From a virus (taxonomy: Duplodnaviria; Caudoviricetes), in the IMG/VR virus record IMGVR_UViG_3300042522_001179, positions 183 to 64,182 of that record: 64,000 bases of DNA; one strand, 5' to 3'. The position numbers were made by a program, and so were the translations under genes. Numbering within the stretch: the first letter of the stretch is position 1; the number at the start of each line of letters is the position of its first letter. The notes under the pieces are model-generated. The model was not told where the DNA came from, did not search any database, and was given only the letters and a program-made list of their open reading frames with translations. Below, piece by piece: positions 37,633 through 55,088 of this stretch.

Positions 37633-38238
37633 GTGAATCGATTTAAGCAGAGGCTCCAGCATTTAAAGCGTCCGATAAAGAATGTTTTAGATGTTGGAGC
37701 GTATAGGGGTGATTTCGCGCGGGTAATCCAAGAAGTTTTTCCTACTGCAAAAATTAAATGCATTGAAGGCGACGAAAGGCAGGCTTCATTTCTTGAAACA
37801 TTTGACACAGATTTTTATCTGCTTGGGCGTAAAACTAAGCAGGTAGATTTTTACACACTGCCAGAAAATTGTTGTACAACTGGCAGTTCTATCTATAAAG
37901 AAAATACGATTCATTACCAAGAACCCTTGGTGATTAAAAAATGGTGTTATGCATTAGATGATTTGCATTTCCCTTCGTTTGATTTAATTAAACTTGATGT
38001 ACAAGGAGCCGAGCTTGATATTTTAAAAGGAGGTAAAAAATACTTGGCCGAGACCAAGCCTACTTATTTACTTCTTGAAACATCAGTACAGCAATACAAT
38101 CAAGGGGCACCCCTGGCTGGAGAAGTGATTTCATACCTTAATAAAAAAGGCTATAACTTACGCGATGTTATTGATGTGCTTTATGATCAAAGCAATCAAT
38201 TACTACAGGTTGATTTCCTGTTCGAGTGTGACACCTAA
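37633..38238 (+). CDS. FkbM-family methyltransferase
   Basis: VLDVGAYRG and DLIKLDVQGAELDILKGG. Confidence 0.9.
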   Translation: MNRFKQRLQHLKRPIKNVLDVGAYRGDFARVIQEVFPTAKIKCIEGDERQASFLETFDTDFYLLGRKTKQVDFYTLPENCCTTGSSIYKENTIHYQEPLVIKKWCYALDDLHFPSFDLIKLDVQGAELDILKGGKKYLAETKPTYLLLETSVQQYNQGAPLAGEVISYLNKKGYNLRDVIDVLYDQSNQLLQVDFLFECDT

Positions 38239-39154
38239 GCAACCTAAAGGCGGAACAGAAATCCTGGTCGAAACACTTAGGCAGAACCTGGATTTCACTG
38301 GAATCAACTTGATTGTATCTGTTTGCAAGCCTGAATTAATTGTACCTGGCAAAAAGAATATTTTATTACAAGAGTTAAGCTATGACCAGGAAAATGTGCA
38401 GGGAATGCGGAGCCCTTCTTTTGTAGACGCCATTGATTGTTTCATTTATGACTCCCACTGGTGCTATGAAAAATTTAGAGAAAAATTAAATACGCCGCCT
38501 TGGAAATCTACTGTAATCAAAAATGCAACCACTTCTTTTGAGGTAAAGCCAAAACCAAAGGAAAAGCTAAAGCTTATCTACACGTCTACTCCATGGCGAG
38601 GGTTGCATGTATTGCTACGTGCTTTTCAAATATTAAATCGGAACGATATTGAACTAGATGTTTATTCATCTACAACTATTTATGGCCCAGCTTTTGCAAA
38701 ATCTGTAGAAGGAAAGTTTGATTCTTTATTTGAAAATTTACGCAATACGCCTGGGATTAATGTCATGGGTTATGCTTCAAATGACAAAATCCGCGCCGCT
38801 TTGCAAGATGCGCATATTTTTGCGTATCCAAGTGTTTTTGAAGAGACTTCTTGTATTTCAGCAATTGAAGCAATGTGCGCTGGTTGTCAAGCAGTCGTAA
38901 CAAACTATGGTGCTTTATTTGAAACGTGTGGTGAATACGCTGAATTTGTAACTTATGACAACAACCACGAAAGGCTTGCTCATAATTATGCCAAGGTACT
39001 GAGCAGAGTGATCGACAATTACTGGTACCCTGGAAACCAAGCTATACTTACGGAACAGACAACGTTTTACAACAAGAATTGGACATGGCAAAAAAGATTA
39101 TCCCAATGGCAGCAGTTACTCAAAAAAATAAAAACAAACCAAGACGTGTTTTAA
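38228..39154 (+). CDS. GT4-like glycosyltransferase
   Basis: KGGTE, LIYTSTPWRGL, FAYPSVFEETSCISAIEAMCAG; GTG start inferred. Confidence 0.88.
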   Translation: MTPKQPKGGTEILVETLRQNLDFTGINLIVSVCKPELIVPGKKNILLQELSYDQENVQGMRSPSFVDAIDCFIYDSHWCYEKFREKLNTPPWKSTVIKNATTSFEVKPKPKEKLKLIYTSTPWRGLHVLLRAFQILNRNDIELDVYSSTTIYGPAFAKSVEGKFDSLFENLRNTPGINVMGYASNDKIRAALQDAHIFAYPSVFEETSCISAIEAMCAGCQAVVTNYGALFETCGEYAEFVTYDNNHERLAHNYAKVLSRVIDNYWYPGNQAILTEQTTFYNKNWTWQKRLSQWQQLLKKIKTNQDVF

Positions 39155-39798
39155 TTGGTACTCCGGCATTAGACGGACGAGTTGATGCCTGGTACTCGTA
39201 CGCTCTACATGAAATTGGCAAACAAAGTTTGTTAAACAACATTGATGTAAATATTATTTTGCTGTCGTATGAAAGCATTTTACCAATGGCTCGCAACCAA
39301 ATTTTAACGGCGGCTATTGAAGGAGATTTTGACTCTCTCGTTTTTATTGATTCAGATGTTTATTGCGATCCACAGGCTTTTATCTCAGTTGTCACAGATA
39401 CTTTTGACGTTGTTGCAATCCCAACGGTTAAAAAAACTGACATTGAAAGTTACGATATTAAACCAAAAGAAAATTTTGAAATCAAAGATGGGTATTTGAC
39501 TGTCGATTGGGTAAGCACTAGTTGTTTGAAGTTAAGCAAAAAAGTATTAAAAGATCTTGCTAACAACAGTAACCAGACAATGTTTCGGGGAAATGCGTTG
39601 TACAACATTTGTCAATACGATTTTATGAATGAGAATTTTATGGGAGAAGACGTGTATTTGTGCAATAAAATTAAAAGACTTGGTTACGAGATTTGGGTTA
39701 GCACTGCATCTACTTGTATGCACATTGGACCTAAAGTGTATAAAGGAGATTTTAAAAAAGTGTTAGAAAATGTCAATCAAATTAACGGAGGCAGCTGA
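39085..39798 (+). CDS. GT-A fold glycosyltransferase-like protein
   Basis: VLIGTP, ARN, LVFIDSDV (DxD), GEDVYLC. Confidence 0.8.
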   Translation: MAKKIIPMAAVTQKNKNKPRRVLIGTPALDGRVDAWYSYALHEIGKQSLLNNIDVNIILLSYESILPMARNQILTAAIEGDFDSLVFIDSDVYCDPQAFISVVTDTFDVVAIPTVKKTDIESYDIKPKENFEIKDGYLTVDWVSTSCLKLSKKVLKDLANNSNQTMFRGNALYNICQYDFMNENFMGEDVYLCNKIKRLGYEIWVSTASTCMHIGPKVYKGDFKKVLENVNQINGGS

Positions 39799-40882
39799 AT
39801 ATTTCAAAAAAGAGCAACATCAGATTGACTCTTGGAACTGGCTGCAAACACAAATTGATTCTGAAATTTTAGAAAAATTTGCAATCAAATACCGGACTTC
39901 GCCAACGGCACCTGTTAAATATGCAAATACATGGGAAGGTGTTCTTGCTGCCGCAAAGGAAGCAGGCGCAAAATATCCGGAATGTGTAGCTGCCCAATGG
40001 GCCCTGGAGTCAAACTGGGGCAAAGATACTTCGGGCACGTATAACTACTACGGCCTTAAAGGATCTGGTACAACAGTTAATACTCAGGAATTTATTAACG
40101 GTCAATGGGTAACAATTAAAGCTGGGTTTATTGACTTTCCAGATCTTTACACCTGCACTTGCTACTTAGTTGATCGGTGGTACAAAGACTACGGTACATA
40201 CAAAGGTGTTAATCGGGCCACAAGCAGGAATAATTGCGCCAATTTATTGGTTGCCGAAGGTTACGCTACAGATCCCGGCTATGCAACAAAATTAATCCAG
40301 ATCATGGATAAGCAACTTGGTGCACCAGGTGGCAGTACAGCAGATGCGACAACGTCTAAAACTTTGTCCGTGCCTTATTTTTATCAGCTTGACAACCAAT
40401 CTGGTACAGGATACCGCGAATGTTTTTCGTCGAGTTGCGCAATGATTTCGGCTTACTACGGCAAAGTCAAATCTGATGATGAGTACAATAAAATTCGCGC
40501 TAAGTACGGAGACACTACGGATAAAGACGCTCAGCTAGCAGCTCTGCGATCCTTGGGACTTAAAGCGACTTTTATTACAAACGGTAATGCCGCATTACTA
40601 GAAAATGAAATTCGCAACGGAAAGCCAGTGGCTGTTGGCTGGTTGCATCAGGGCAATGTAAACTATCCTGCTGGTGGCGGGCACTGGACCTGTTGCGTTG
40701 GTTTTGCAGCTGATTACTTTGTGCACAACGATCCAAATGGTGAGGCAAATATGGTGAATGGAGGGTACGTCAGTAACTCTGCTGCGCGTGGCAAAGATGT
40801 AAAATACAGCCGTAAAAATTGGCTGCGTCGTTGGGAGTGCGACGGTAACAACACAGGTTGGGCAATTATTGTATCAAAGTGA
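39770..40882 (+). CDS. endolysin: GH73 glucosaminidase plus C39-like peptidase
   Basis: AAQWALESNWG..NYYGLK..GYATDPGY; VPYFYQLDN..ECFSSSCAM..GGHW..HNDP. Confidence 0.88.
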   Translation: MSIKLTEAAEYFKKEQHQIDSWNWLQTQIDSEILEKFAIKYRTSPTAPVKYANTWEGVLAAAKEAGAKYPECVAAQWALESNWGKDTSGTYNYYGLKGSGTTVNTQEFINGQWVTIKAGFIDFPDLYTCTCYLVDRWYKDYGTYKGVNRATSRNNCANLLVAEGYATDPGYATKLIQIMDKQLGAPGGSTADATTSKTLSVPYFYQLDNQSGTGYRECFSSSCAMISAYYGKVKSDDEYNKIRAKYGDTTDKDAQLAALRSLGLKATFITNGNAALLENEIRNGKPVAVGWLHQGNVNYPAGGGHWTCCVGFAADYFVHNDPNGEANMVNGGYVSNSAARGKDVKYSRKNWLRRWECDGNNTGWAIIVSK

Positions 40883-41040
40883 AACGTAATAAAAATTTAA
40901 AAATTCGCGTCAACATGTGTTGGGAAGTTGGCGACGAAAAAAAATGCGTAACCCTCAGCAAAGAAGAGGCTTACGCAACTAAAAAATGGGTGGAAGACAA
41001 CAATGGTGTTGTGTTCTGGACTCAGGTGTTGCCTAATTGA
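40879..41040 (+). CDS. small hypothetical protein
   Basis: GTGA-coupled ORF. Confidence 0.45.
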   Translation: MKRNKNLKIRVNMCWEVGDEKKCVTLSKEEAYATKKWVEDNNGVVFWTQVLPN

Positions 41041-41205
41041 TCAGCGTTGCTTGGCGCGACCAATCACTAAACCACCAATTTCAATTAACTTGTACAACTT
41101 ACGCGCAACTCGATCATCTTTAGGAGTTGGTGTTAAAGCGCAAATTGCTGAACATGCCGCATGGATGGCAAGAGCAACTTCAAAGTACTTGTTAAGGTGT
41201 TCCAT
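41041..41205 (-). CDS. 54-aa holin-like membrane protein (below ORF-track cutoff)
   Basis: MEHLNKYFEVALAIHAACSAICALTPTPKDDRVARKLYKLIEIGGLVIGRAKQR; TPTPKDD motif of small phage holin-like proteins; next to the endolysin. Confidence 0.7.
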   Translation of the reverse strand: MEHLNKYFEVALAIHAACSAICALTPTPKDDRVARKLYKLIEIGGLVIGRAKQR

Positions 41206-41232
41206 GGTCCTGTCTAATTTTTATCATTCTAT

Positions 41233-41655
41233 CTATAGTTTTCTCATAAGCATAAAGCTACGTTCGTTTGGATCGTAATTCCAAACAAAATCTTCGTGTT
41301 TAGAAAACCAGCCGTAATACATACGTGCTTGTTTTTCTGGTTTGACTGATGCACAACGCAGGCAAATTACGTCGTTAATTTCAATTTCTTGTAGCCATTC
41401 TTTTACCTTGCGTAAGCCAATAGCTAATGTCCTTGGTCCTTCTTTACCTGTCATAGATAAATTCAACTGACGCACCCGTTTGTTTTTGCGAAGCTTGGCC
41501 CAGTCGTTTAGTTGCCTGCGGCTTTTGCTGATTGCTAAGCTTGCAAGCCACACGTATCCGTTGTTGATATCTAGCCATGGCGTCAGTCTCATCTGAAGCC
41601 AATAACCATTTGCTATAGCTTTCGTAAATATCTTTGATTTTCTTTTGGGGATCAT
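41233..41655 (-). CDS. hypothetical protein (140 aa)
   Basis: ATG ORF, basic. Confidence 0.6.
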   Translation of the reverse strand: MIPKRKSKIFTKAIANGYWLQMRLTPWLDINNGYVWLASLAISKSRRQLNDWAKLRKNKRVRQLNLSMTGKEGPRTLAIGLRKVKEWLQEIEINDVICLRCASVKPEKQARMYYGWFSKHEDFVWNYDPNERSFMLMRKL

Positions 41656-41658
41656 TCA

Positions 41659-41793
41659 TTAATCCTCGTAAATACGACATTCCCTAGCCCAGGGATTTTG
41701 CTCACAGTATATTTCAAAATTTGTATGAGTGCTAGGTACGTTGATTTGACAACGTTTAAACAGCTTACAGATAAGCCAATTATAAAAACGCAT
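41659..41793 (-). CDS. cp12: CP12-like mini-protein (44 aa, below ORF-track cutoff)
   Basis: MRFYNWLICKLFKRCQINVPSTHTNFEIYCEQNPWARECRIYED; C-terminus matches CP12 FE.YC..NP.A.ECRIY.D; start coupled to the upstream stop. Confidence 0.75.
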   Translation of the reverse strand: MRFYNWLICKLFKRCQINVPSTHTNFEIYCEQNPWARECRIYED

Positions 41794-42716
41794 CATGGCC
41801 TGGTAATTAAAGGACTAAAGATTTCGGGCAAAGCATCTCCTGGGCTTCTTTCACGTTGCCAAGCCTCGGTCCATTCAATTCGAGAATGTTCATGAACAGA
41901 ATTATAATCGTAAGACTCCGAAGGTTCAATAATAAATTTATCCTTAGGCGCCTCTGGAGTATCGAAGCCAATTAACCACACTGAATTTTCTGAAATTGTA
42001 ACGGTGACTCCATCAGCAATAGTAGCTTCTGTAAAAGTAAAGCCGTTGAATCCAGGTGGTATTGTGTAGTTTACATCAAAAAGAGGACCAATAACAATAG
42101 TGGTTCCTGTGTTGATTTGATTTTCTTGTACTAAAAAGTCTCCATCAGTATCCTCTAAAAGGATAAACATTTCAGTTGTTGATATTTCAACAACAATTCC
42201 AAGACTGTAATCAAGTTGTTCGTTGCGTGTGCTTGAAACACAAATTAAATAACTGCCAGGTTGCAAGGCAAAATAAAGATCATTGCCTTTATCGATTGAA
42301 TATCTGTTAAATTCGTTGTACAGGTTAGAACCTGCACCCATAACATTTCCTAGATAGGGATAGTATGGATTTCCATCTAATGAGGTAGCTAATTCACTAT
42401 CCGCTTGGAAAATCATGCGCCCTTGAATGGGCGTTAAATTTAAATCGTACGCAGAAACTTGGATATAGTTAGGACGAGGATCTCCTTTACGTGTAACAAT
42501 CCACGCAGGAACTTCCAAGTTTATTTGAAACCAGTGGTTGTACGTCCCTCCACCAAAGCCACCGTTTGAATATTGATTTGTATCTGCACGGCCGACAACT
42601 TTATTGACAGGCCCTAATGAGCCTGTCAAATAACGAAGTGAAGTTTGGTTAAAACTTCCAAGAAGTAATGGATTCTGACGCGTTCTTTGCCGTTGAGACT
42701 GAGATGAGCGTGTCAT
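41793..42716 (-). CDS. hypothetical beta-rich protein (307 aa)
   Basis: Long ORF; LQPGSYLICVSS resembles a PPC-like beta-sandwich. Confidence 0.65.
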   Translation of the reverse strand: MTRSSQSQRQRTRQNPLLLGSFNQTSLRYLTGSLGPVNKVVGRADTNQYSNGGFGGGTYNHWFQINLEVPAWIVTRKGDPRPNYIQVSAYDLNLTPIQGRMIFQADSELATSLDGNPYYPYLGNVMGAGSNLYNEFNRYSIDKGNDLYFALQPGSYLICVSSTRNEQLDYSLGIVVEISTTEMFILLEDTDGDFLVQENQINTGTTIVIGPLFDVNYTIPPGFNGFTFTEATIADGVTVTISENSVWLIGFDTPEAPKDKFIIEPSESYDYNSVHEHSRIEWTEAWQRERSPGDALPEIFSPLITRP

Positions 42717-42736
42717 TCAATATAAATATTATCGTT

Positions 42737-43411
42737 TTATTCATTGTACTCGGGGGGTTCTTTAACATACAAAGGGTCTGTTATGGCCATTTTGTAATTT
42801 TGTTTTAAGACTGGATCAATTGTTTTATGGTTTAGAAGACGACGATTAAAAAGCATCAAACGCTCTGCGTTGAATTTGGTTTCAAACGGTGAGATAGTTT
42901 GTGGTGGCATGTTGCGATTCCAGCTGGAAACCAAGTGAAGTGGGTTACAACAAGCTTTGTTTCCACACAGTCTGGTAACGGGCATAGACCCAACATCTCC
43001 CCATGCACATTGGTATACAGCTTTATGCATGTTTAGATTTTCAGATTTTTGCTTGCTATAACCTGAACGATAGGAGGGCAAGCAAATGCGCTTGGGCGTT
43101 TTGTCGCCGCTGCCAGTGATCGGCCAGCATTCCTGGGGAGAGTTGACCGTGACTGTGTTCCAAAGGTTTGCGTACTTGGCTTTGTAGTCCGCATGTAGGT
43201 AGCTCACGTCAAAGCCGCAAACATTACTGAGGATTTTGTGAACACATTCGTAACACCAGTGTTTGGATGAGTCTCGGATGAGATGACCGTGAGCACAGGG
43301 GTAGCCCCGATAGTAACCGTGAGACTCAAGAATCTCATTACTGAGATTGTGAATATTTTCCAAATAACGAAACTGAGGAATCTCAGTGGTGCTTGCAATA
43401 AGACGGGCCAT
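42737..43411 (-). CDS. Zn-binding HNH/His-Cys endonuclease-like protein
   Basis: PCAHGH..WCYEC, ECWP, HKAVY, VTRLCGNKACCNPLHL. Confidence 0.7.
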   Translation of the reverse strand: MARLIASTTEIPQFRYLENIHNLSNEILESHGYYRGYPCAHGHLIRDSSKHWCYECVHKILSNVCGFDVSYLHADYKAKYANLWNTVTVNSPQECWPITGSGDKTPKRICLPSYRSGYSKQKSENLNMHKAVYQCAWGDVGSMPVTRLCGNKACCNPLHLVSSWNRNMPPQTISPFETKFNAERLMLFNRRLLNHKTIDPVLKQNYKMAITDPLYVKEPPEYNE

Positions 43412-43413
43412 GG

Positions 43414-43785
43414 TCAGAAGAGTTCAGATTTGGGACAGTAGTTGTAAACAGTCGGTCCTGGTGTGCGTTTCTTTTGATACGCAGTAGACAAGGTCAGTTC
43501 CAGGCGGTTGTCTTTCTCTGGGTTTGACTCCGCATGGATCACGTCCCCACCAGTGGGTTCCTTGCCCGTCTGGAGGTACCAGACGAGCCTGTGGGCCAGG
43601 TATCGATCTCCGTTAACGCAAACCTTGTAGAAGCCTGTGATGGGGTCATAGGTGCCAGCAGGGTCTCCAACCCTCCGATGCCTGTGGGCCATGCACCATT
43701 CCAGTCCAGAAGGAGTCTTGGAAGAGAGCTTGAGACGTTTGCGGAGCCACCAAAGCTCGGGAAAGGGCTTGTAATTCCGTGCCAT
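43414..43785 (-). CDS. HNH homing endonuclease-like protein
   Basis: YLAHRLVWYLQTG...VIHAESNPEKDNR. Confidence 0.75.
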   Translation of the reverse strand: MARNYKPFPELWWLRKRLKLSSKTPSGLEWCMAHRHRRVGDPAGTYDPITGFYKVCVNGDRYLAHRLVWYLQTGKEPTGGDVIHAESNPEKDNRLELTLSTAYQKKRTPGPTVYNYCPKSELF

Positions 43786-43929
43786 GTGCAGACTTTGGGC
43801 CTTTTTCAGACAATACCCCCTACTTTAATCTTTATATAGGTTAAATCACAAAGATTCCTGGTTTTGTGATTTGTCCTAGAAGGGTTTGAAAGTGGGGGGT
43901 ATTGTCTGTTTTTCCCGCAATCTCTGCAC
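43786..43929. repeat. long imperfect inverted repeat (about 145-nt hairpin)
   Basis: CAGACAATACCCCC/GGGGGTATTGTCTG, AAATCACAAA/TTTGTGATTT and GTGCAGA/TCTGCAC nested arms. Confidence 0.85.
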
Positions 43930-44059
43930 CGACACCTTGGTCTCGCCTTGAGACACCAGTTGTACCAATGCTTTTTAGCCTTCAGTATTTGCTGTAGTAC
44001 AAATATACCCTGCAGAGTTACTCCGTCTTACCCTGGTCTCATCTTGAGATTGTTGTCAC

Positions 44060-44091
44060 AAAAAGAAAGCCCCGCCAAAGCAGGGCCTTTT
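44060..44091 (-). terminator. Rho-independent terminator
   Basis: - strand GGCCCTGC-tttg-GCGGGGCT then TTCTTTTT, downstream of the GT4 gene. Confidence 0.75.
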
Positions 44092-44106
44092 AACTCACCT
44101 TGAGTC

Positions 44107-45363
44107 TCAAACGGGAGTAAACGCTTTGGACCCTTTTTTCTTTTTGTTTTTTTTCTTGACGTTTTCTTTGTCTGCGGCTTCTTCTCCCAGCACCTCTTGG
44201 AACGCCTCATCAAATTGAGAGGCGACCGTATCCCAGTCAAATGCTTCGTCAGTAGCCCTCTCGTAACAGGCTTGCGCCACGGCATCCAGCTCGTTACGGT
44301 TCTCGTACAGCTCCACCAGGATTTCAGTTAGATGCTCTACGGAGGGGCATGGCATCTCCCGACCGTAGTTTGTATCTACGTCTACGTGATCGCAACGGAT
44401 CAATTTGCCGTAGCCATCAAAAATTTCTTTACAAGACGTGTGGTCTGGCACTACTTGAGCCACTTTGCATGCGGCATGTTCAAAGTTAACAAGTCCCCAG
44501 CCTTCGCCTTTGCAAGTGTTGACGCCTACATCAACTGCGTTATAGATGTCATTTAGCATCTCAACGTTTACGTTTGGCGGCGATTGCGTGTTTGTGGTCA
44601 TAATAATGCGACCGTTTGGATCTAACCCATTACGCATCATTTCCCGACCAAAGACTGGCATTACATCCCACCCTTGATCTTTCAATCCCATGTGGAGATA
44701 CAGTTGAACATCTGGACGACCCACCGCAAACCGTGCGAAAGCAGCAATCGTGATATCAATGCGCTTGCGGAATTGATTTCGATTTCCGTTAAACACAATA
44801 AAGATATCCTCGCGCAGGCCCAGCCGTTTACGCGCTTCTGCTTTTGACTTGGGTGCGAATTGACCCGTGGTGACACCGTGGGGAATCACAGTGATTGGAC
44901 GTTCAACGCCCCCTTTAATTGCTTCAAGTGCACCAAATTCCGTGTAGCAGATTGCACTATCCCATTCATTAGCAGTATCTGCTAGAGCACCATGCCAGCC
45001 GTAGCTATCCATGGGGAAATACCCCACAAACTTAAAGCCAATATTTTTTTTTAAATCGGCAATACGTTTGTATTGTTCATTGATAATCCAAATGTCATTC
45101 ATTGTGAAAACAATATCCGGACGTTCGCGCTCTACAACTTCGCAAATGCGCTCTTCTCCAAACGGTGCTTGTTGGAACCGATTAGAAGACGGATACATTT
45201 TGTAGTCGTCTTGCAGGGGTGTTGGATCACCCCACCAGTTGTGACCCAAGACCACAATTTCGTACTTATCTTTTAGTCGACTAAGGACATTTTCTGTGAC
45301 ACGGGCAAATCCCGTCATAGCAACAATGTCACCACACCAAAGAAGCTTAGGTTTTTTACTCAT
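44107..45363 (-). CDS. GT4-family glycosyltransferase
   Basis: TGFARV, VIPHGV, NRNQFRKRID, GEGWGLVNFEHAAC. Confidence 0.9.
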   Translation of the reverse strand: MSKKPKLLWCGDIVAMTGFARVTENVLSRLKDKYEIVVLGHNWWGDPTPLQDDYKMYPSSNRFQQAPFGEERICEVVERERPDIVFTMNDIWIINEQYKRIADLKKNIGFKFVGYFPMDSYGWHGALADTANEWDSAICYTEFGALEAIKGGVERPITVIPHGVTTGQFAPKSKAEARKRLGLREDIFIVFNGNRNQFRKRIDITIAAFARFAVGRPDVQLYLHMGLKDQGWDVMPVFGREMMRNGLDPNGRIIMTTNTQSPPNVNVEMLNDIYNAVDVGVNTCKGEGWGLVNFEHAACKVAQVVPDHTSCKEIFDGYGKLIRCDHVDVDTNYGREMPCPSVEHLTEILVELYENRNELDAVAQACYERATDEAFDWDTVASQFDEAFQEVLGEEAADKENVKKKNKKKKGSKAFTPV

Positions 45364-49848: not shown

Positions 49849-49997
49849 TGACCAGCAACCTCACCCGGTTCTACCTAGAAGAGGAGTTTGAGTACGTCGC
49901 CAAGGCTCCCGTCATCGACGTAGAAACTACGGAAGCTGACGAGGTTGAGCAAAAGCTCAAAGATCAAGATATTATTTATACACGCGTTGACTTGTGA
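49848..49997 (+). CDS. 49-aa acidic protein
   Basis: MTSNLTRFYLEEEFEY...; TGATG-coupled at both ends. Confidence 0.6.
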   Translation: MTSNLTRFYLEEEFEYVAKAPVIDVETTEADEVEQKLKDQDIIYTRVDL

Positions 49998-50740
49998 TGT
50001 CCAAAGCACCACCCATTGAGATGATCGGTACCATGGTCCTTAACGGGGCCGATGATCTGTGGAATCATTTTGCAAGTATTGATCATCCCCTCAAACGTTA
50101 TGTCATCATTGATAACTCTATGGGCAAGTACCCCGCAGTGCGGGGCACCATCGAACAAATCAAACAGGACAAACCTGAGCATATTGATGAAGTTGTAATA
50201 CTTCAAAACAATTTGAACGTCGGTTTCTCTGGTAGCGTCAATCAAATTGTTCGTCAGAATACCGACTGTTCATATTGGTGCATCTTTTCGGTGGATTGGC
50301 ATCCACGCCCAGGTGAGCTAGCCAAACTGGCAGAGCGTCTTACCAAACCATTCACTCAGTTTCTATGCGACGAAACAATGAGTGGATATTCGGCTATGGT
50401 ATTTAAGCCCCAACTAATTCAAAAGGTTGGGCTAATGGACGAAAACTTTTTTCCCGCATACTTCGAGGACAATGATCATCGGTATCGCATGGAACTTACT
50501 GGGCTCTCATGGGATTACTTTCAGATGGCCTTTGACCACAAAGTTAGCAGCACCTTGCACAGCAATGAGCAATTCAAAAACCGAAACAATGTCACATACC
50601 ACAACAACGGAATGTATTACCTTGAAAAATGGGGAGGATTCCCTGGAAACGAACGATACAAACATCCTTTCAACAGCAAAGCCCCAGTCTCCCACTGGAG
50701 CTATGATCCAAAACGAAGCGAGCAACAGCGATGGATTTGA
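49997..50740 (+). CDS. GT2-like glycosyltransferase
   Basis: VIIDNS, NVGFSGSVN, VGLMDENFFPAYFEDND. Confidence 0.88.
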   Translation: MSKAPPIEMIGTMVLNGADDLWNHFASIDHPLKRYVIIDNSMGKYPAVRGTIEQIKQDKPEHIDEVVILQNNLNVGFSGSVNQIVRQNTDCSYWCIFSVDWHPRPGELAKLAERLTKPFTQFLCDETMSGYSAMVFKPQLIQKVGLMDENFFPAYFEDNDHRYRMELTGLSWDYFQMAFDHKVSSTLHSNEQFKNRNNVTYHNNGMYYLEKWGGFPGNERYKHPFNSKAPVSHWSYDPKRSEQQRWI

Positions 50741-51576
50741 GTCTTTACGGCGGGACGGGTATTATCGGCACTTATTTCAACGGTTTGTACGCTTGCAATA
50801 ACATCCCACGCAACCAGCTTGAACCCCTGGGTGACGAGGTACTGTACTTAATCAGTACAACAGATAACACTACGTTCAAAGAAAATCCGTTTGTTGACGT
50901 AGATACTAATCTTGTGCAGCTTTTGCACAGGCTGGAAGCATGCCGTCGTGTTGGAATCAAGACATTTAACTTTGTAAGCAGTTGGTTTGTTTACGGCTCT
51001 AGTTACAACTGCCCCAATGAAGAAGCCATCTGCGATCCCAAAGGGTTTTATTCCGTCACCAAGTATGCCGCAGAGAAGCTTTGCCGCACATACTGCACTG
51101 CCCATGGAATCAACTACCGCATCCTGCGTCTAGGCAATGTTTATGGCCATGATGGTTACGGTGATTACAGGCGCCATGCTTTGCATTACCTGATTAGGCA
51201 ACTGAAGTGGGACCGGGATATTAATGTTTACATCAATTTATCTCGCGACTACATCCATATCTTGGATACCTGTCGTGCCATTGACTTGATCTGCAGGCAA
51301 GGCATCCTTAACTCCACGTACAACATTGGCACAGGCATTGCAACACGCCTAGGCGATTGCCTGGACCAAGCCAAAGACTTACTTAAATCCAAAGCGTGTG
51401 TCCTTCGTTCCAATGTTCCTTGTGACTATGACCAAGCAATTAGATTTTCTTTGGACTGTGGCCGTCTTTTTAGGTTAGGATTTGAACCACAGATTGCCAT
51501 CCAACAAGGCATCACAGATTTATGTCTAAATCGAAAGTTCTGTACTCCGGACCCTACTTTGATGGAGCAGAAGTAG
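50731..51576 (+). CDS. NAD-dependent epimerase/dehydratase
   Basis: GGTGIIG, SSWFVYG, YSVTK, LRLGNVYG, RDYIHILD. Confidence 0.9.
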   Translation: MDLSLYGGTGIIGTYFNGLYACNNIPRNQLEPLGDEVLYLISTTDNTTFKENPFVDVDTNLVQLLHRLEACRRVGIKTFNFVSSWFVYGSSYNCPNEEAICDPKGFYSVTKYAAEKLCRTYCTAHGINYRILRLGNVYGHDGYGDYRRHALHYLIRQLKWDRDINVYINLSRDYIHILDTCRAIDLICRQGILNSTYNIGTGIATRLGDCLDQAKDLLKSKACVLRSNVPCDYDQAIRFSLDCGRLFRLGFEPQIAIQQGITDLCLNRKFCTPDPTLMEQK

Positions 51577-52778
51577 AGGCTGCTATCAAGACGCTTGAGA
51601 AAGGTGTCTGGTACCCAGCCGGTAAAGAGGTTGAAAAGTTTGAACGTCAGTTTTCAAAACGATTCAACTTCAAAGAATCTTTGATGGTCAACAGCGGTAG
51701 TTCCGCTAACCTTGTCATGGTTGCTGCCCTTAAGGCGTACTATGAATGGCCTGATGGCGCTGAAATTATTGTCAGTGTTGTTGGCTTCCCCACTACTGTC
51801 AACCCCATCATTCAAAATGGACTGACCCCCAAGTTTGTCGACATCACCTGGAGTGATCTAAACTGGGACCTTGATGAGGTTGAAGATGCAATCACAGACA
51901 AAACGGTGGCTGTATTTAGTAGTCCTGTTTTGGGGAACAGCTATGACATGGATCGTCTGGTCGATATTTGTGAACGCCGTCAAGTCAAGCTCATTGCTGA
52001 TAACTGCGATTCACTAGGTTCCCGCTGGAATGATCTGTACCTAACAGAGTATGCAGTAGCTGCATCTTGTTCTTTTTATCCTGCACACCACATCACTACC
52101 CTTGAAGGTGGCATGGTGTCTTCTGGTAATCCAGAGCTCATTCGTTTAGCTCGCCAGTTTGCCTGGTGGGGACGCGACTGCTATTGCGTTGGTGCTTGCA
52201 ACATGCTTGCCAACGGCAGTTGCAACAAGCGGTTTGATAAGTGGCTCGAGGATTACGATTGCGTGGTCGACCACAAGTATGTGTTCAGCCAGATTGGTTA
52301 CAACCTAAAGCCTTTGGATCTGCAAGGTGCAGTTGGTCAAGTTCAATTACGCAAGTTTGATGAAATCCACGACTTACGTCGTGATAATTATTCTTTTATC
52401 AAAGAATGTTTTGAAGGCTTCCCTTCTGAAGTACGTGTGATTGACGAAAAGCCACAAGCTGAAACGTCATGGTTTGGTGTGCCAATTGTATGTGACAATC
52501 CTAAAGTGAAGCATGCACTTCAGCAGTATCTCGAAAAGAATGGTATTCAAACGCGCAATTATTTTGCTGGTAATCTACTACTGCATCCAGCTTACAAGCA
52601 TCTTGGCAATCCCAAAGATTATCCAAATGCATACGAAGTACTGAAACGCGTATTTTTCCTTGGTACTTCCCCTACCTTGATTGATAGCGACTTGAATTAC
52701 ATTAAGAAAATCCTTCAAGACTTCATGGCAACTGCCCCTATTGGTCTCGATGGATACAGCTCTGCTTTTGTTATGTAG
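51522..52778 (+). CDS. rfbH: RfbH/DdhC-like CDP-4-keto-6-deoxyglucose 3-dehydratase (DegT superfamily)
   Basis: VNSGSSANL, DNCDSLG, SFYPAHHITTLEGG (His in place of the PLP Lys), Cys cluster WGRDCYC..C......C. Confidence 0.85.
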   Translation: MSKSKVLYSGPYFDGAEVEAAIKTLEKGVWYPAGKEVEKFERQFSKRFNFKESLMVNSGSSANLVMVAALKAYYEWPDGAEIIVSVVGFPTTVNPIIQNGLTPKFVDITWSDLNWDLDEVEDAITDKTVAVFSSPVLGNSYDMDRLVDICERRQVKLIADNCDSLGSRWNDLYLTEYAVAASCSFYPAHHITTLEGGMVSSGNPELIRLARQFAWWGRDCYCVGACNMLANGSCNKRFDKWLEDYDCVVDHKYVFSQIGYNLKPLDLQGAVGQVQLRKFDEIHDLRRDNYSFIKECFEGFPSEVRVIDEKPQAETSWFGVPIVCDNPKVKHALQQYLEKNGIQTRNYFAGNLLLHPAYKHLGNPKDYPNAYEVLKRVFFLGTSPTLIDSDLNYIKKILQDFMATAPIGLDGYSSAFVM

Positions 52779-53901: not shown

Positions 53902-53997
53902 TATACTTTCAGTGCTCAATACACACGTCTCGTCCCGTAGGTATTGGCGGTAAGTAGTTAGTCTCAGATCTCGGCTTGAGCAACCGAGATTTTTTTG
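53902..53997 (+). ncRNA. putative small RNA with its own -10 box and terminator
   Basis: TATACT 53902; CAATAC/GTATTG hairpin; terminator ATCTCGG-cttgagcaa-CCGAGAT followed by a T-run. Confidence 0.45.
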
Positions 53998-54008
53998 TTA
54001 TAATTCTG

Positions 54009-54255
54009 AGTGATAGAGGCCAGGTCCCTGTGCGCGTTAGGCACATAGCCTAGAAGGCGACACACCTGGTCCATCACACAACCCATACTGCTTTGTTGGT
54101 ATGGCGCAGCGCATGGACCGGAAATTTCCAGTCGTTGCGTTTGCGTACAACACCCCTCATGCCTAGCTTGATAACGAGGACGGCTTTACACCGGGCGCAC
54201 GGGCTTGCAGGCATCCTCACTCAGTTATCAATGACGCACAAACCGAGGGGTCACT
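54009..54255 (+). ncRNA. large structured, pseudoknotted ncRNA of unknown family
   Basis: TATAAT at 53999; about eight complementary stems covering most of the interval; no credible ORF. Confidence 0.65.
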
Positions 54256-54326
54256 CAACCGGTAGTCCAGTGGCAGGACACCCCGACAAGGGAGTTAGAT
54301 AGTTGGTTCGATTCCAACGCGGTTGC
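54256..54326 (+). tRNA. tRNA-like element 1 (degenerate anticodon arm)
   Basis: Acceptor CAACCG/CGGTTG, U8A9, D arm GTCC-AGTGGCA-GGAC, T arm GTTGG-TTCGATT-CCAAC; anticodon arm only about 4 bp with a 5-nt GACAA loop. Confidence 0.7.
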
Positions 54327-54327
54327 T

Positions 54328-54402
54328 CGCCTGGTCCGAGACAATTGGATAGTACGGCTGCTGCGCTGCAGGGCGATGTAGGTTCGAATCCTACCCAGGT
54401 GC
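54328..54402 (+). tRNA. tRNA-like element 2 (degenerate D and anticodon arms)
   Basis: Acceptor CGCCTGG/CCAGGTG, T arm GTAGG-TTCGAAT-CCTAC, D-loop-like AATTGGATA, CTGC-tgcgct-GCAG hairpin. Confidence 0.65.
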
Positions 54403-54431
54403 TTTAGAGTGAGCAGACTCAAGCAAATCAA

Positions 54432-55088
54432 ATGAGTTACCTCAATCACAACCTGCCTACGTTTACGTGTTACATCCGAAACGAGTTCCTATACAACCAC
54501 AAACAAGGCCATGGCGAGGTGACGTTGTGCGATGTCCACTCAGTGGCCTCTCTGGAGAAGCGCGTCCCTTTATTTGAAGTCTTCCTGGAGAATGGTGTCA
54601 ACTGGACAAGGCGTCCAATCCACGCTCTCTGCTGGAAGCCAGGTGCCCCTAAGCCCGAATTAAATGAGTGCATGTGGTGGGATTGTTTCTCTCCGTATAT
54701 CGATGTGCAGGTTAGGTCACGCCTCTCAAATTTACGTGCGCAGCTGATCAACTTCAAAGGGGAGAAGAAAGGCGGCATCTACATGTTCACCCTTGACTGG
54801 TCATGGGAATCTAAATCAACTCTTAATACAAACTTCAGCGAAACACCTGAGCACAAGTGTGCGCATTTCTTCCGGATGGATGATGGCAACTTCTATGCAT
54901 ATCCCAATAACCGAGTCATTTGGTACGACGACGCCTGGCTTAAGAACCGTATTGAAAAAAACCCTGGCTACGAGATTGACTTGACTGAGTACAGCGTAGA
55001 GAACTCACGGATGATTGAGACGTCCAACCATTTTATATACGAGACAACAGCCACAGGTGAACAGGATTTACAGTTAGTTTTGGAATAG
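54432..55088 (+). CDS. conserved phage hypothetical protein (218 aa)
   Basis: MSYLNHNLP...EHKCAH...GNFYAYPNNRV; aromatic-rich globular ORF. Confidence 0.75.
   Translation: MSYLNHNLPTFTCYIRNEFLYNHKQGHGEVTLCDVHSVASLEKRVPLFEVFLENGVNWTRRPIHALCWKPGAPKPELNECMWWDCFSPYIDVQVRSRLSNLRAQLINFKGEKKGGIYMFTLDWSWESKSTLNTNFSETPEHKCAHFFRMDDGNFYAYPNNRVIWYDDAWLKNRIEKNPGYEIDLTEYSVENSRMIETSNHFIYETTATGEQDLQLVLE

What the first reader, a model, noticed from the sequence alone, without database searches (positions are those of the whole stretch)
54256..54425. Tandem tRNA mimics with intact acceptor/T arms but destroyed anticodon arms
Seen: two ~71-75-nt elements 1 nt apart keep 6-7-bp acceptor stems and perfect T arms (GGTTCGATTCC, GGTTCGAATCC). 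Element 1 has a canonical D arm but a ~4-bp stem with a 5-nt GACAA loop instead of an anticodon arm. Element 2 has an Arg-like D-loop sequence (AATTGGATA) that can alternatively fold as TCCGA-GACAA-TTGGA, again a GACAA loop, and a 6-nt-loop hairpin. Neither encodes CCA. A further hairpin (GCTT..GAGT/ACTC.AAGC) precedes ATG 54432. Known: RNase P, RNase Z and CCA-adding enzyme read the acceptor/T half, while anticodon nucleases (PrrC, VapC and others) read the anticodon loop. Inference: the asymmetric decay suggests selection for non-decoding roles such as processing signals, decoys or Y-RNA-like scaffolds.
Basis: partly seen in the sequence, partly recalled or inferred. Interest (0 to 1): 0.72.

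Follow-up and report, generated by a model that had tools for sequence, protein, structure and literature searches.

The report
Non-decoding tRNA-like RNAs of cyanophages
Two tRNA-shaped genes in a freshwater cyanophage cannot read codons; the first belongs to a widespread, unannotated phage RNA family in which a small conserved hairpin replaces the anticodon arm, and here it directly follows a phage copy of a bacterial antitoxin RNA.

Summary

- **Element 1 (54256-54326)** is not a decayed tRNA. It belongs to a conserved cyanophage RNA family with 83 distinct sequences in the loci I fetched. Carriers include S-PM2, S-RIM8, S-RIM32, S-CREM1, S-SZBM1, DSL-LC03 and S-EIVl, and none of these records annotates it.
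- **Structure.** The acceptor, D and T arms are kept. The anticodon arm is replaced by a covarying 4-bp stem with a bulged A and a near-invariant GACAA pentaloop. 13 of 20 pairs show compensatory changes.
- **Distribution.** A pattern scan found it in only 2 stretches among the genomes of 185,579 bacterial and archaeal species, and both look like phage contigs.
- **Element 2 (54328-54402)** is a marginal tRNA-like element. It keeps only the acceptor and T helices and occurs in a narrow clade.
- **Context.** Both elements end a promoter-driven non-coding RNA operon (about 54012-54402). RNA-library contigs from four studies cover its 5' two-thirds but not the flanking genes.
- **Upstream neighbour.** An abiF-type antitoxin RNA motif (54150-54255) carrying a 62-nt insertion ends directly at element 1. 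No AbiF protein gene was found in 5 of 5 carrier phage genomes.
- **Adjacency rule.** In 16 of 16 related loci this motif abuts a tRNA or this tRNA-like RNA.
- **Best reading.** The elements act as tRNA-type processing sites. Element 1 probably also has a binding role of its own through the GACAA arm; its partner is unknown.

The parts
53968..53996 (+). Terminator-like hairpin (TCTCGG / CCGAGA, 9-nt loop) followed by a run of 7 T. It ends the upstream gene block.
   Evidence: Read from the sequence. The scan did not list it because its loop limit is 8. The same arrangement appears in relatives in the alignment.
53976..54004 (+). Sigma-70-type promoter-like site: TTGAGC, 17-nt spacer, TG-n-TATAAT.
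   Evidence: 10 of 12 matches with an extended -10. RNA-library contigs start at 54023-54030.
54012..54075 (+). 'GATAGAGG...TCCATC' structured motif, the first domain of the non-coding transcript.
   Evidence: 26 distinct instances in the fetched loci. RNAalifold predicts 15 pairs, 5 with compensatory changes. MFE z-score -4.4. No Rfam family matches.
54150..54255 (+). abiF-type RNA motif (flank, motif core 54153-54251, then the 4-nt spacer CACT) with a 62-nt hairpin inserted in its apical loop.
   Evidence: Model R2, built from relatives without the window, gives one hit in the whole window with filters off: 54.5 bits, E 4e-13. Relatives with the short form pass Rfam RF03085 at 44.8-53.1 bits against a cut-off of 37. 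Alignment A4 shows the homology.
54256..54326 (+). Element 1: GACAA-arm tRNA-like RNA, with acceptor, D arm, small arm and T arm.
   Evidence: ARAGORN calls it tRNA-???. R1 gives 85.1 bits. Family covariation is shown.
54280..54295 (+). Small arm of element 1: stem 54281-84 paired with 54290-92 and 54294, bulged A at 54293, GACAA loop at 54285-89.
   Evidence: All 4 pairs covary across the family. The bulge is A in 80 of 83 sequences and the loop is GACAA in 77 of 83.
54328..54402 (+). Element 2: degenerate tRNA-like element with a 7-bp acceptor, a CCGA-GACAA-TTGG hairpin (54336-48), a second hairpin (54355-75) and a T arm (54378-94).
   Evidence: R1 gives 16.5 bits, E 0.0055. There are 6 distinct versions in relatives. 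The S-EIVl version shows compensatory changes in the acceptor (G-C to C-G at 7:66) and the T stem (T-A to C-G).
54401..54424 (+). Hairpin GCTT..GAGT / ACTC.AAGC. It overlaps the last 2 nt of element 2 and lies 7 nt before ATG 54432.
   Evidence: -8.3 kcal/mol, z-score -1.7, so not distinctive on its own.
54432..55088 (+). Downstream ORF of 218 aa, a conserved cyanophage protein of unknown function.
   Evidence: phrog_3704, E 8e-48. No match in Pfam, NCBIfam or PDB sequences. Homologues occur in T4-like cyanophages.

Best explanation
Element 1 is a working member of a cyanophage-specific family of tRNA-derived RNAs that cannot decode. I call it the GACAA-arm tRNA-like RNA.

Shown:
- It keeps the acceptor helix, D arm, T arm and the nucleotides of the tRNA elbow.
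- A short covarying stem with a bulged A and a GACAA pentaloop stands in place of the anticodon arm.

Context in this phage:
- Elements 1 and 2 close a promoter-driven non-coding RNA operon.
- Its order is: GATAGAGG motif, a variable middle part, an abiF-type antitoxin-like RNA, element 1, element 2, then an mRNA.

Inferred mechanism:
- The host's tRNA-maturation enzymes recognise the acceptor/T halves. These would be RNase P at the 5' ends, and RNase Z or exonucleases plus the CCA-adding enzyme at the 3' ends.
- Cutting there releases the upstream abiF-type RNA with a short defined 3' tail and separates the small RNAs from the downstream message.
- Element 1 is then a stable small RNA in its own right. 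Its GACAA arm is probably a GNRA-like fold with a flipped-out C, as in P22 boxB. It would be a sequence-specific contact for a protein or RNA that is still unknown.
- Element 2 serves only as a processing site.

The orphan abiF-type RNA is most simply read as a phage-made antitoxin mimic against host AbiF-type HEPN RNases. That is also inference.
For: Family and structure:
- BLAST found the element unannotated in S-EIVl, S-PM2, S-RIM8, S-RIM32, S-CREM1, S-SZBM1 and DSL-LC03.
- Pattern scans of viral contigs gave 55 of 79 loci and 117 of 119 loci holding it. These yield 83 distinct sequences.
- On 63 distinct sequences, 95.2% of cells are paired and 13 of 20 pairs change on both sides.
- 0 of 500 shuffles reach the observed pairing or covariation score. 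Slid controls reach at most 43.7% paired.
- There is one copy per genome in 5 of 5 phage genomes.

Not a decoder:
- No 7-nt loop and no U33.
- ARAGORN gives '???', or in relatives inconsistent His(atg) or Leu(caa) calls, or nothing at all.
- True tRNAs score 25-43.5 bits with R1, while family members score 58.6-99.

Phage-specific:
- Only 2 stretches matched in the collection of one genome for each of 185,579 species. Both score 96 bits, and one sits in an array of tRNA-like hits.

Processing role:
- The abiF-type motif ends 4-5 nt before a tRNA or the tRNA-like RNA in 16 of 16 loci. Eight precede true tRNAs and eight precede the tRNA-like RNA.
- The same holds in the window and in S-CREM1, where the next gene is tRNA-Gly.
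- In S-CREM1 the manA RNA also abuts tRNAs on both sides.

Expression:
- Short RNA-library contigs from 4 studies cover 54023/54030 to 54247/54264/54283 and none of the flanking genes.
- One contig bridges the junction between the abiF-type motif and element 1, reaching 54283.
- A promoter-like site lies at 53976-54004.

Orphan antitoxin:
- The Abi_2 protein family has no match in 0 of 5 carrier phage genomes, two of them 100% complete, nor in 56 window ORFs.
- abiF RNA is the antitoxin of the AbiF RNase (PMC12373285, abstract; PMC12737573, passages).

GACAA loop:
- In P22 boxB it forms a GNRA-like pentaloop whose looped-out C touches the N peptide (PMC12550061, passages).
Against: - There is no direct evidence of cleavage, CCA addition or a stable 71-nt species.
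- The RNA contigs end at 54247 (two studies, one followed by adapter sequence), 54264 and 54283, not at the predicted RNase P site 54255/54256. Contigs cannot show true ends.
- The 3' half of element 1 is covered only by a 39-nt match (54277-54315) to a contig of a relative. Element 2 has no RNA-contig cover at all.
- A true tRNA does the same job next to the abiF-type motif in 8 of 16 loci, so processing alone does not explain the conserved GACAA arm.
- S-PM2 and S-RIM8 carry the tRNA-like RNA but no canonical abiF motif.
- Only 16 of 100 loci have an abiF-type motif within about 450 nt.
- Of 118 distinct upstream contexts, 41 show no motif I could name.
- The first base is C in 88 of 96 sequences and the base before it is U in only 44 of 96. 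By recalled preference this is not the ideal RNase P context.
- Whether hosts of these phages have AbiF was not tested.
- Some family members pass Rfam's tRNA cut-off weakly, at 32-35.6 bits.
Confidence: 0.6

Rival explanations
1. Anti-defence decoy. Element 1 is an uncleavable tRNA look-alike that binds and blocks a host nuclease or toxin that recognises tRNA shape, such as a HEPN, AbiF/Cas13-type or other anticodon nuclease. It would work alongside the abiF-type antitoxin mimic, with processing as a by-product.
For: - It is restricted to phages.
- It is single-copy and strongly conserved.
- It sits in the same transcript as an orphan antitoxin-type RNA.
- It lacks exactly the loop that anticodon nucleases cut.
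- Activated Cas13a, a relative of AbiF, cuts tRNA anticodon loops (PMC12373285, discussion passage).
Against: - A decoy without the anticodon loop lacks the usual recognition site of such nucleases.
- It would have to compete with a very large pool of cellular tRNA.
- No partner is known.
- S-PM2 and S-RIM8 carry it without a canonical abiF motif.
- Nothing here tests binding.
Confidence: 0.2
2. The RNA receives CCA and an amino acid and feeds or regulates a non-ribosomal pathway. Because its D arm is of the Glu/Gln type, candidates are glutamyl-tRNA synthetase, or glutamyl-tRNA reductase of the pigment pathway.
For: - The D stem GUCU/GGAC followed by A26 is the same as in phage tRNA-Gln and close to tRNA-Glu in alignment A5.
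- The same D-arm pattern picked up two true tRNA-Gln(UUG) genes.
- The total length equals that of a tRNA with a 4-nt variable loop.
- From memory: the D helix is an identity element for E. coli GluRS, and cyanophages carry pigment genes.
Against: - The discriminator base is not conserved: A 42, T 23, C 14, G 4 of 83.
- The first pair is C-G, not the pair of Glu or Gln tRNAs in A5.
- Pair 7:66 is not a standard pair in 50 of 63 distinct sequences.
- The anticodon, a major GluRS element by recall, is absent.
Confidence: 0.07
3. The elements are decaying tRNA pseudogenes without function.
For: - Element 2 is weak: 16.5 bits with R1.
- It is confined to a narrow clade, lost or truncated in relatives such as L022, and enlarged in S-EIVl.
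- No RNA contig covers it.
Against: - For element 1, compensatory changes occur in three helices including the replaced arm, and the loops are near-invariant between distantly related phage groups.
- For element 2, there are two compensatory changes between the S-EIVl version and the window group, in the acceptor and T stems.
- The background of GACAA hairpins is very low.
Confidence: 0.03
4. Element 1 is an unusual decoding or suppressor tRNA whose loop opens to 7 nt (N-GACAA-N).
For: - ARAGORN sometimes forces His(atg) or Leu(caa) calls on relatives.
- A few family members pass Rfam's tRNA cut-off.
Against: - The closing pair of the loop covaries (A-U 26, G-C 18, C-G 15 of 63), so it is a pair.
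- Position 33 would be G, not U.
- The stem would be left with only 3 pairs plus a bulge.
- Different programs and different copies give different 'anticodons'.
Confidence: 0.03

Closest known systems
Canonical tRNA (Rfam RF00005); closest decoders are phage tRNA-Gln(UUG) and tRNA-Glu
   Same: Acceptor helix, D arm (GUCY...GGAC), T arm with a TTCGATT loop, U8, A14, the GG of the D loop, the same overall length, and a position inside tRNA gene arrays of T4-like cyanophages.
   Different: - No 7-nt anticodon loop and no U33.
- A 4-bp stem with a bulged A and a GACAA loop instead.
- Pair 7:66 is not a standard pair in 50 of 63 distinct sequences.
- The discriminator is free.
- The window copy fails Rfam's cut-off.
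Phage T4 'species 1' and 'species 2' stable RNAs (rnaC, rnaD), recalled rather than looked up
   Same: Small stable RNAs of unknown function encoded inside a phage tRNA cluster and matured with the tRNAs.
   Different: I know of no sequence relation. The T4 RNAs are longer and are not cloverleaves with a GACAA arm. I did not compare them here.
mascRNA / MALAT1 and MEN-beta tRNA-like 3' elements of mammals, recalled
   Same: A tRNA-like cloverleaf with an abnormal anticodon arm sits directly 3' of a non-coding RNA. RNase P cutting at its 5' end makes the mature 3' end of the upstream RNA.
   Different: Those are eukaryotic and nuclear, with no relation by descent. Here the same role is inferred only from adjacency (16 of 16 loci).
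abiF RNA (Rfam RF03085), the AbiFr / RCd22 antitoxin of the AbiF HEPN RNase. This concerns the RNA just upstream of element 1.
   Same: - Same outer stem, inner 3-bp stem, CAAAYC internal loop and loop ends.
- Relatives pass the Rfam cut-off.
- S-CREM1's copy is in print (PMC9964418, Table 4 and passages).
   Different: - The window copy carries a 62-nt apical insertion and is missed by Rfam.
- No abiF gene lies beside it.
- It is always followed by a tRNA-shaped RNA.
- The library searches listed no paper, by title or abstract, on this adjacency. The S-CREM1 paper never uses 'tRNA-like'.
Bacterial Y RNAs (YrlA) with a tRNA-like domain, and the tRNA-like domain of tmRNA, recalled
   Same: Non-decoding RNAs that mimic the tRNA elbow and acceptor and are handled by tRNA enzymes.
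   Different: - Y RNAs are circularly rearranged, with their ends in the Ro-binding stem, and lie next to rsr. No TROVE protein was found in 56 window ORFs.
- tmRNA lacks a D stem and carries a reading frame. ARAGORN found no tmRNA.
P22 boxB RNA
   Same: A GACAA pentaloop on a short stem. In P22 it folds like a GNRA loop with the C flipped out to touch the N peptide (PMC12550061, passages).
   Different: This is a resemblance of one loop only. No N-like protein or nut-site context is known here.

Membership tests
tRNA (decoding) | Cloverleaf with acceptor, D and T arms and elbow nucleotides | tested here: met
   Element 1 has all three arms with covariation. Element 2 has only the acceptor and T arms.
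tRNA (decoding) | 5-bp anticodon stem with a 7-nt loop, U33 and a readable anticodon | tested here: not met
   - Element 1 has a 4-bp stem, a bulged A and a 5-nt GACAA loop.
- ARAGORN reports a 2-base 'anticodon'.
- Element 2 has two short hairpins with 5-nt and 3-6-nt loops.
tRNA (decoding) | Score at or above Rfam RF00005's gathering score of 29 bits | tested here: not met
   - The window has no match at gathering score.
- A near-identical copy in G002 reaches 32.9 bits, L123 32 and L161 35.6, so the family straddles the cut-off.
- True tRNAs score 53-74 bits.
GACAA-arm tRNA-like family (defined here, model R1) | R1 score well above that of true tRNAs, a small arm with a GACAA loop and bulged A, and a 7:66 mismatch | tested here: met
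   - Element 1 scores 85.1 bits, though it was in the seed.
- Unseeded members such as L203 and L204 score 96 bits, while true tRNAs score 25-43.5.
- Element 2 does not belong: 16.5 bits.
abiF RNA (RF03085), for the upstream neighbour | Rfam gathering score of 37 bits | tested here: not met
   The window copy is not found at gathering score or at E up to 10. The 62-nt apical insertion explains this.
abiF RNA (RF03085), for the upstream neighbour | Homology of both motif halves to copies that pass the Rfam cut-off | tested here: met
   Model R2, built from 11 relatives without the window, gives 54.5 bits and E 4e-13 as the only hit in the window. 7 of its 11 seed sequences are short forms, of which 6 were seen to pass Rfam.
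abiF RNA (RF03085), for the upstream neighbour | Lies beside an abiF (Abi_2) toxin gene and neutralises it | tested here: not met
   No Abi_2 match in 0 of 5 carrier phage genomes. Neutralisation cannot be tested with these tools.
Bacterial Y RNA (YrlA type) | Encoded next to an rsr (Ro/TROVE) gene, with the RNA ends in a Ro-binding stem | tested here: not met
   No TROVE domain in the 56 ORFs scanned. The ends of the element lie in the acceptor stem.
RNase P / RNase Z substrate | Cleavage at the first base and after the discriminator | not testable with these tools
   There is only indirect support from adjacency. The contig ends do not mark the site.

The most novel reading that the evidence does not exclude
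Cyanophages carry an RNA-only counter-defence cassette that the host's own tRNA-processing enzymes mature. It holds an orphan abiF-type antitoxin mimic together with the GACAA-arm tRNA-like RNA. The latter would be a new kind of trans-acting inhibitor: an uncleavable tRNA look-alike whose GACAA arm locks onto a host tRNA-directed nuclease or toxin.
Probability: 0.2. Interest if true: 0.9.

Novelty: new variant of a known kind. Interest (0 to 1): 0.72.

Why it matters
- Phage tRNA genes are usually explained by codon usage or by replacing tRNAs that defence nucleases have cut. This tRNA-shaped gene cannot decode, yet it is kept with compensatory changes in very different cyanophages: T4-like myoviruses and the S-EIVl group. 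It occurs once per genome and is missed or mis-called by annotation tools.
- It offers a well-defined new RNA family to test in culturable systems such as S-PM2 and S-CREM1.
- The locus also shows that cyanophage tRNA arrays act as launch pads for other small RNAs (abiF-type, manA, the GATAGAGG motif), which are cut out by tRNA processing.
- If the abiF-type RNA is a phage-made antitoxin, this would be RNA-based escape from an AbiF-type defence, the ancestor of Cas13, in ecologically important cyanobacteria.

Tried and rejected
- Rfam on the window: nothing useful. The mir-370 hit at 14.3 bits (E 8.6) is chance.
- The search of earlier findings by sequence, by words and by place: nothing on record.
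- Supplement of Weinberg 2017, for the original abiF description: not readable here. The main text has no occurrence of the term. What it says about neighbours of abiF RNA therefore remains unseen.
I could not ask whether picocyanobacterial hosts carry AbiF. A paper search for AbiF with Synechococcus found 0 papers.
- Integration site (attP) idea: rejected. The element is in lytic T4-like phages and is absent from host genomes.
- Pairing of base -1 with the discriminator, as in tRNA-His: 42 of 83, so no signal.
- The 24 loci without the family motif hold the same 17-mer by chance. By eye they are a coding-like group ('TACTGGGGCC...'), four unrelated hairpins (L043, L066, L071, L078) and a few single hits. 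I dropped them from all counts.
- L058 joins the 5' half of the element to another tRNA's 3' half. It was left out of the alignments.
- Type 'b' sequences with a 10-nt variable region, plus L049, were left out of A2. They and L114, L122 and L129 were left out of A3 because MAFFT misplaced their T stems. R1 still scores those tested at 71-86 bits.
- RNA-contig gaps over element 2 and the flanking genes, and the shared contig end at 54247: weak hints only.
- The downstream ORF gave no match in NCBIfam or PDB sequences.
Full report
**1. What the window is.** The window is almost all of a 64,182-base IMG/VR virus record, estimated 81% complete. Its genes are phage genes:
- a primase-helicase, an exonuclease, a terminase, lysozymes, a tail fibre and a virion protein;
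- a Dps-like protein and sugar-modifying enzymes.

The nearest named phage around the finding is Synechococcus phage S-EIVl. DNA runs holding the stretch are listed as lake-water metagenomes, plus one biofilm metagenome.

**2. The observation.** Both elements are as described.
- Element 1 (54256-54326) has a 6-bp acceptor helix plus a G.G mismatch at 7:66, a regular D arm and a regular T arm. CCCC-GACAA-GGG stands where the anticodon arm should be.
- Element 2 (54328-54402) starts 1 nt later. It has a 7-bp acceptor, a regular T arm, a CCGA-GACAA-TTGG hairpin and a second hairpin.
- Neither encodes CCA.
- ARAGORN reports only element 1, as 'tRNA-???' with a 2-base anticodon.
- Rfam reports nothing at gathering score and only a chance-level tRNA-Sec match in permissive mode.
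- Both fold as cloverleaf-like shapes.

**3. Element 1 belongs to a family.**
- BLAST against 50,697 phage records found the element in S-EIVl, S-PM2, S-RIM8, S-RIM32, S-CREM1, S-SZBM1 and DSL-LC03. Nothing is annotated under the element in any of them; the single 'tRNA-Ala' label (H14) comes from the neighbouring gene at the end of the query.
- In S-PM2 and S-RIM8 it lies between tRNA-Thr and tRNA-Ala, and ARAGORN again says 'tRNA-???'.
- A scan of viral contigs for the 17-mer around the loop gave 79 loci, of which 55 hold the element.
- That scan fixes the loop by construction. I therefore ran a second scan fixing only the D arm and the T loop.
- Of those 119, 117 hold the element and 2 hold a true tRNA-Gln(UUG).
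- In this free region the loop is GACAA in 111 of 117 (GATAA 2, AACAA 2, TGCAA 2). The stem under it changes freely: CCC/GGG, GCA/UGC, GCG/CGC, GUG/CAC and others.
- The two scans overlap. Together with the window and the named-phage loci they give 83 distinct element sequences.

**4. Covariation.** I aligned 64 sequences (63 distinct). Sequences with long variable regions and one chimera were left out; see Tried and rejected.
- 95.2% of cells form standard pairs, and 13 of 20 pairs change on both sides.
- None of 500 column shuffles reaches the observed pairing or covariation score.
- Sliding the partners by 1-3 columns gives at most 43.7% pairing.
- All four pairs of the small arm change on both sides. 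These are columns 27-40, 28-38, 29-37 and 30-36, with a bulged A at column 39.
- The D stem did not vary, but the search pattern had fixed it.
- Pair 7:66 is not a standard pair in 50 of 63 sequences. It is mostly G.A.
- The bulge is A in 80 of 83 sequences.
- The discriminator is free (A 42, T 23, C 14, G 4).
- CCA follows the discriminator in 2 of 83.
- The distance from position 27 to the T stem equals that of a normal tRNA with a 4-nt variable loop. The arm was therefore remodelled without a change in length.
- The D arm matches phage tRNA-Gln and tRNA-Glu best.

**5. Model R1 and distribution.**
- A covariance model of the family scores members at 58.6-99 bits and true tRNAs at 25-43.5 bits.
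- Each of five phage genomes has exactly one copy.
- A pattern scan of one genome for each of 185,579 bacterial and archaeal species found 2 stretches. One is a 27-kb contig of a metagenome-assembled genome, where the match lies among several tRNA-like hits. The other is a 413-base contig.
- Both score 96 bits and look like phage DNA. The family is thus phage-borne and is not copied from a host gene present in those genomes.

**6. Element 2.**
- R1 gives 16.5 bits (E 0.0055), aligned only over the acceptor and T arm.
- The copy in relative G002 scores 20.4 bits with Rfam tRNA, below the cut-off.
- Six distinct versions exist in ten loci.
- Five of the six are near-identical. They include one compensatory change in the second hairpin (C-G to U-A).
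- The S-EIVl version is 27 nt longer and lacks the GACAA hairpin. It keeps the acceptor and T helices through two compensatory changes.
- Several relatives lack element 2, and one (L022) keeps only its first bases.
- Only 4 GACAA loops closed by four consecutive pairs occur on both strands of the window. Element 2's loop is therefore unlikely to be chance, but its conservation is shown only within a narrow clade.

**7. The surroundings change the picture.**
- Upstream lie a terminator-like hairpin (53968-53996) and a promoter-like site with an extended -10 (53976-54004). About 245 nt without a credible ORF follow before element 1.
- In relatives, Rfam finds the abiF RNA motif (RF03085, cut-off 37 bits) ending 4 nt before the tRNA-like RNA. 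Scores are L010 53.1, L024 49.7, L049 49.7 and L123 46.6 bits.
- The window has the same two motif halves, separated by a 62-nt hairpin inserted in the apical loop (alignment A4).
- A model built from 11 relatives without the window finds exactly one hit in the window with filters off: 54150-54255, 54.5 bits, E 4e-13.
- abiF RNA is the antitoxin of the AbiF HEPN RNase, a type III toxin-antitoxin pair regarded as the ancestor of Cas13 (PMC12373285, abstract; PMC12737573, passages).
- The phage genomes with this RNA have no Abi_2 protein: 0 of 5, two of them complete. None was found in 56 window ORFs either. The RNA is therefore an orphan.
- An abiF sRNA has been reported in one cyanophage, S-CREM1, from an Rfam hit (PMC9964418, passages and Table 4). 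That paper has no occurrence of 'tRNA-like'.

**8. Adjacency rule.**
- Among 100 loci from the unbiased scan, 16 hold an abiF-type motif.
- In all 16 the motif, with its 4-5-nt spacer, runs straight into a tRNA-shaped gene. Eight run into the tRNA-like RNA and eight into a true tRNA: Arg(UCU) five times, then Val, Gly and Leu.
- S-CREM1 follows the same rule: abiF, 4 nt, tRNA-Gly. There the manA RNA also touches tRNAs on both sides, and the unannotated tRNA-like RNA lies a few bases (0-6, depending on the call) after tRNA-Met.
- This is the strongest support for the idea that tRNA processing cuts out the neighbouring small RNAs, and that element 1 can supply that service.
- It also shows that a true tRNA can do the same. 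Processing alone therefore does not explain the conserved GACAA arm.
- S-PM2 and S-RIM8 have the tRNA-like RNA but no canonical abiF motif.

**9. Expression.**
- Contigs from four metatranscriptome runs of four studies lie on 54023/54030 to 54247/54264/54283 and on none of the flanking coding sequence. A further 39-nt match to a contig of a relative lies at 54277-54315.
- Two contigs stop at 54247, one of them running into adapter sequence. One bridges into element 1.
- Contigs cannot prove ends, and RNA libraries can hold DNA. Still, short contigs confined to the non-coding stretch are what an abundant stable RNA would give.
- Nothing covers element 2.

**10. The GACAA loop.** In the P22 N-peptide/boxB complex, a GACAA pentaloop folds like a GNRA tetraloop with the C flipped out onto the peptide (PMC12550061, passages). 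That makes a specific protein or RNA contact a reasonable reading of the invariant loop. It is a resemblance only.

**11. Is it in print?** The following searches found no description of this tRNA-like family:
- 'cyanophage' with 'tRNA-like': 8 papers, seen as a listing, one of them read in passages;
- 'abiF motif' with 'tRNA';
- 'S-PM2', 'tRNA', 'ncRNA';
- 'AbiF', 'antitoxin', 'phage-encoded', 'decoy'.

Rfam 15 has no family for it. A large catalogue of candidate viral RNAs (PMC10690425) names five candidate RNAs that overlap ARAGORN tRNA calls, and none of the five is an undetermined call. I saw only passages of that paper, not its tables.

**12. Verdict.**
- Element 1 is a real, conserved, non-decoding tRNA-derived RNA of cyanophages. 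I hold this with high confidence.
- In this phage, elements 1 and 2 most likely act as tRNA-type processing sites for a non-coding operon that carries an orphan abiF-type RNA. This is moderate confidence and inferred.
- Element 1 probably has a further binding function through its GACAA arm, with the partner unknown.
- The comparisons with T4 species 1/2 RNAs, mascRNA, Y RNAs, tmRNA, GluRS identity rules and RNase P preferences are recalled, not looked up.

Noticed in passing
window 54012-54075; also L002 1659-1711, L009, L025, L146 and others: This looks like an undescribed structured motif of the form 'GATAGAGG - 6-bp stem - CNCUG - variable hairpin - YAC - stem - UCCAUC'. I found 26 distinct instances. 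In S-EIVl-like phages it lies at the 5' end of the ncRNA operon. In T4-like cyanophages it lies inside tRNA arrays, often touching a tRNA or the tRNA-like RNA. RNAalifold shows 5 covarying pairs, and Rfam has no match.
   Followed up: partly
L102, L084, L095 and 24 other contexts, directly 5' of the tRNA-like RNA: Marine T4-like loci carry a pseudoknot-like hairpin, GGGGAC-AUAGGUAAA-GUCUCC-AAC-ACCUA-CCACAU. Its first stem covaries by eye (GGGAAC/GUUCCC, GUGGAC/GUCCAC, GAUAAC/GUUAUC). This accounts for 27 of 118 distinct upstream contexts. S-PM2-type loci instead have GGGRAGU-CCUCUAAY-ACUYCCC (4 of 118). Both loops recall the CUCUCAAC of the abiF loop, but Rfam's abiF model does not match them.
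   Followed up: partly
window 54164-54225; L022, L114, L161, L063: The apical loop of the phage abiF-type motif tolerates insertions of at least three kinds: about 12, 45 and 62 nt. Each forms its own hairpin, while the stem and the CAAAYC internal loop stay constant.
   Followed up: partly
L118, L146, L160, L087, L210 (S-CREM1): ARAGORN calls the same tRNA-like family 'tRNA-His (atg)' in some relatives and 'tRNA-Leu (caa)' in others, and gives no call in others. Automatic annotation may therefore carry false His or Leu tRNAs in cyanophages. In S-RIM8 the locus-tag number 027 is missing exactly where the element lies.
   Followed up: no
L203 (27-kb contig of a metagenome-assembled genome labelled Acidimicrobiaceae); L204 (413-base contig in a Clostridium assembly): Both hold a 96-bit copy of the cyanophage tRNA-like RNA. 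L203 also has several tRNA-like hits around it. They are probably phage DNA binned or assembled with bacterial genomes.
   Followed up: no
L058 368-438: The 5' half of the tRNA-like RNA is joined to the 3' half of a different tRNA. This is either an assembly chimera or a recombination between array members.
   Followed up: no
window 49994-52778: A glycosyltransferase, a nucleotide-sugar epimerase and a DegT-type aminotransferase lie just upstream of the ncRNA operon. Two further glycosyltransferases and an FkbM methyltransferase lie at 37633-45363. This is a large sugar-modification gene set for a 64-kb phage.
   Followed up: no
G001 26561-26633, G002 34459-34531: The two complete relatives each carry one true tRNA-Leu(UAA) far from the ncRNA operon. 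No true tRNA was found in the window or in S-EIVl.
   Followed up: no
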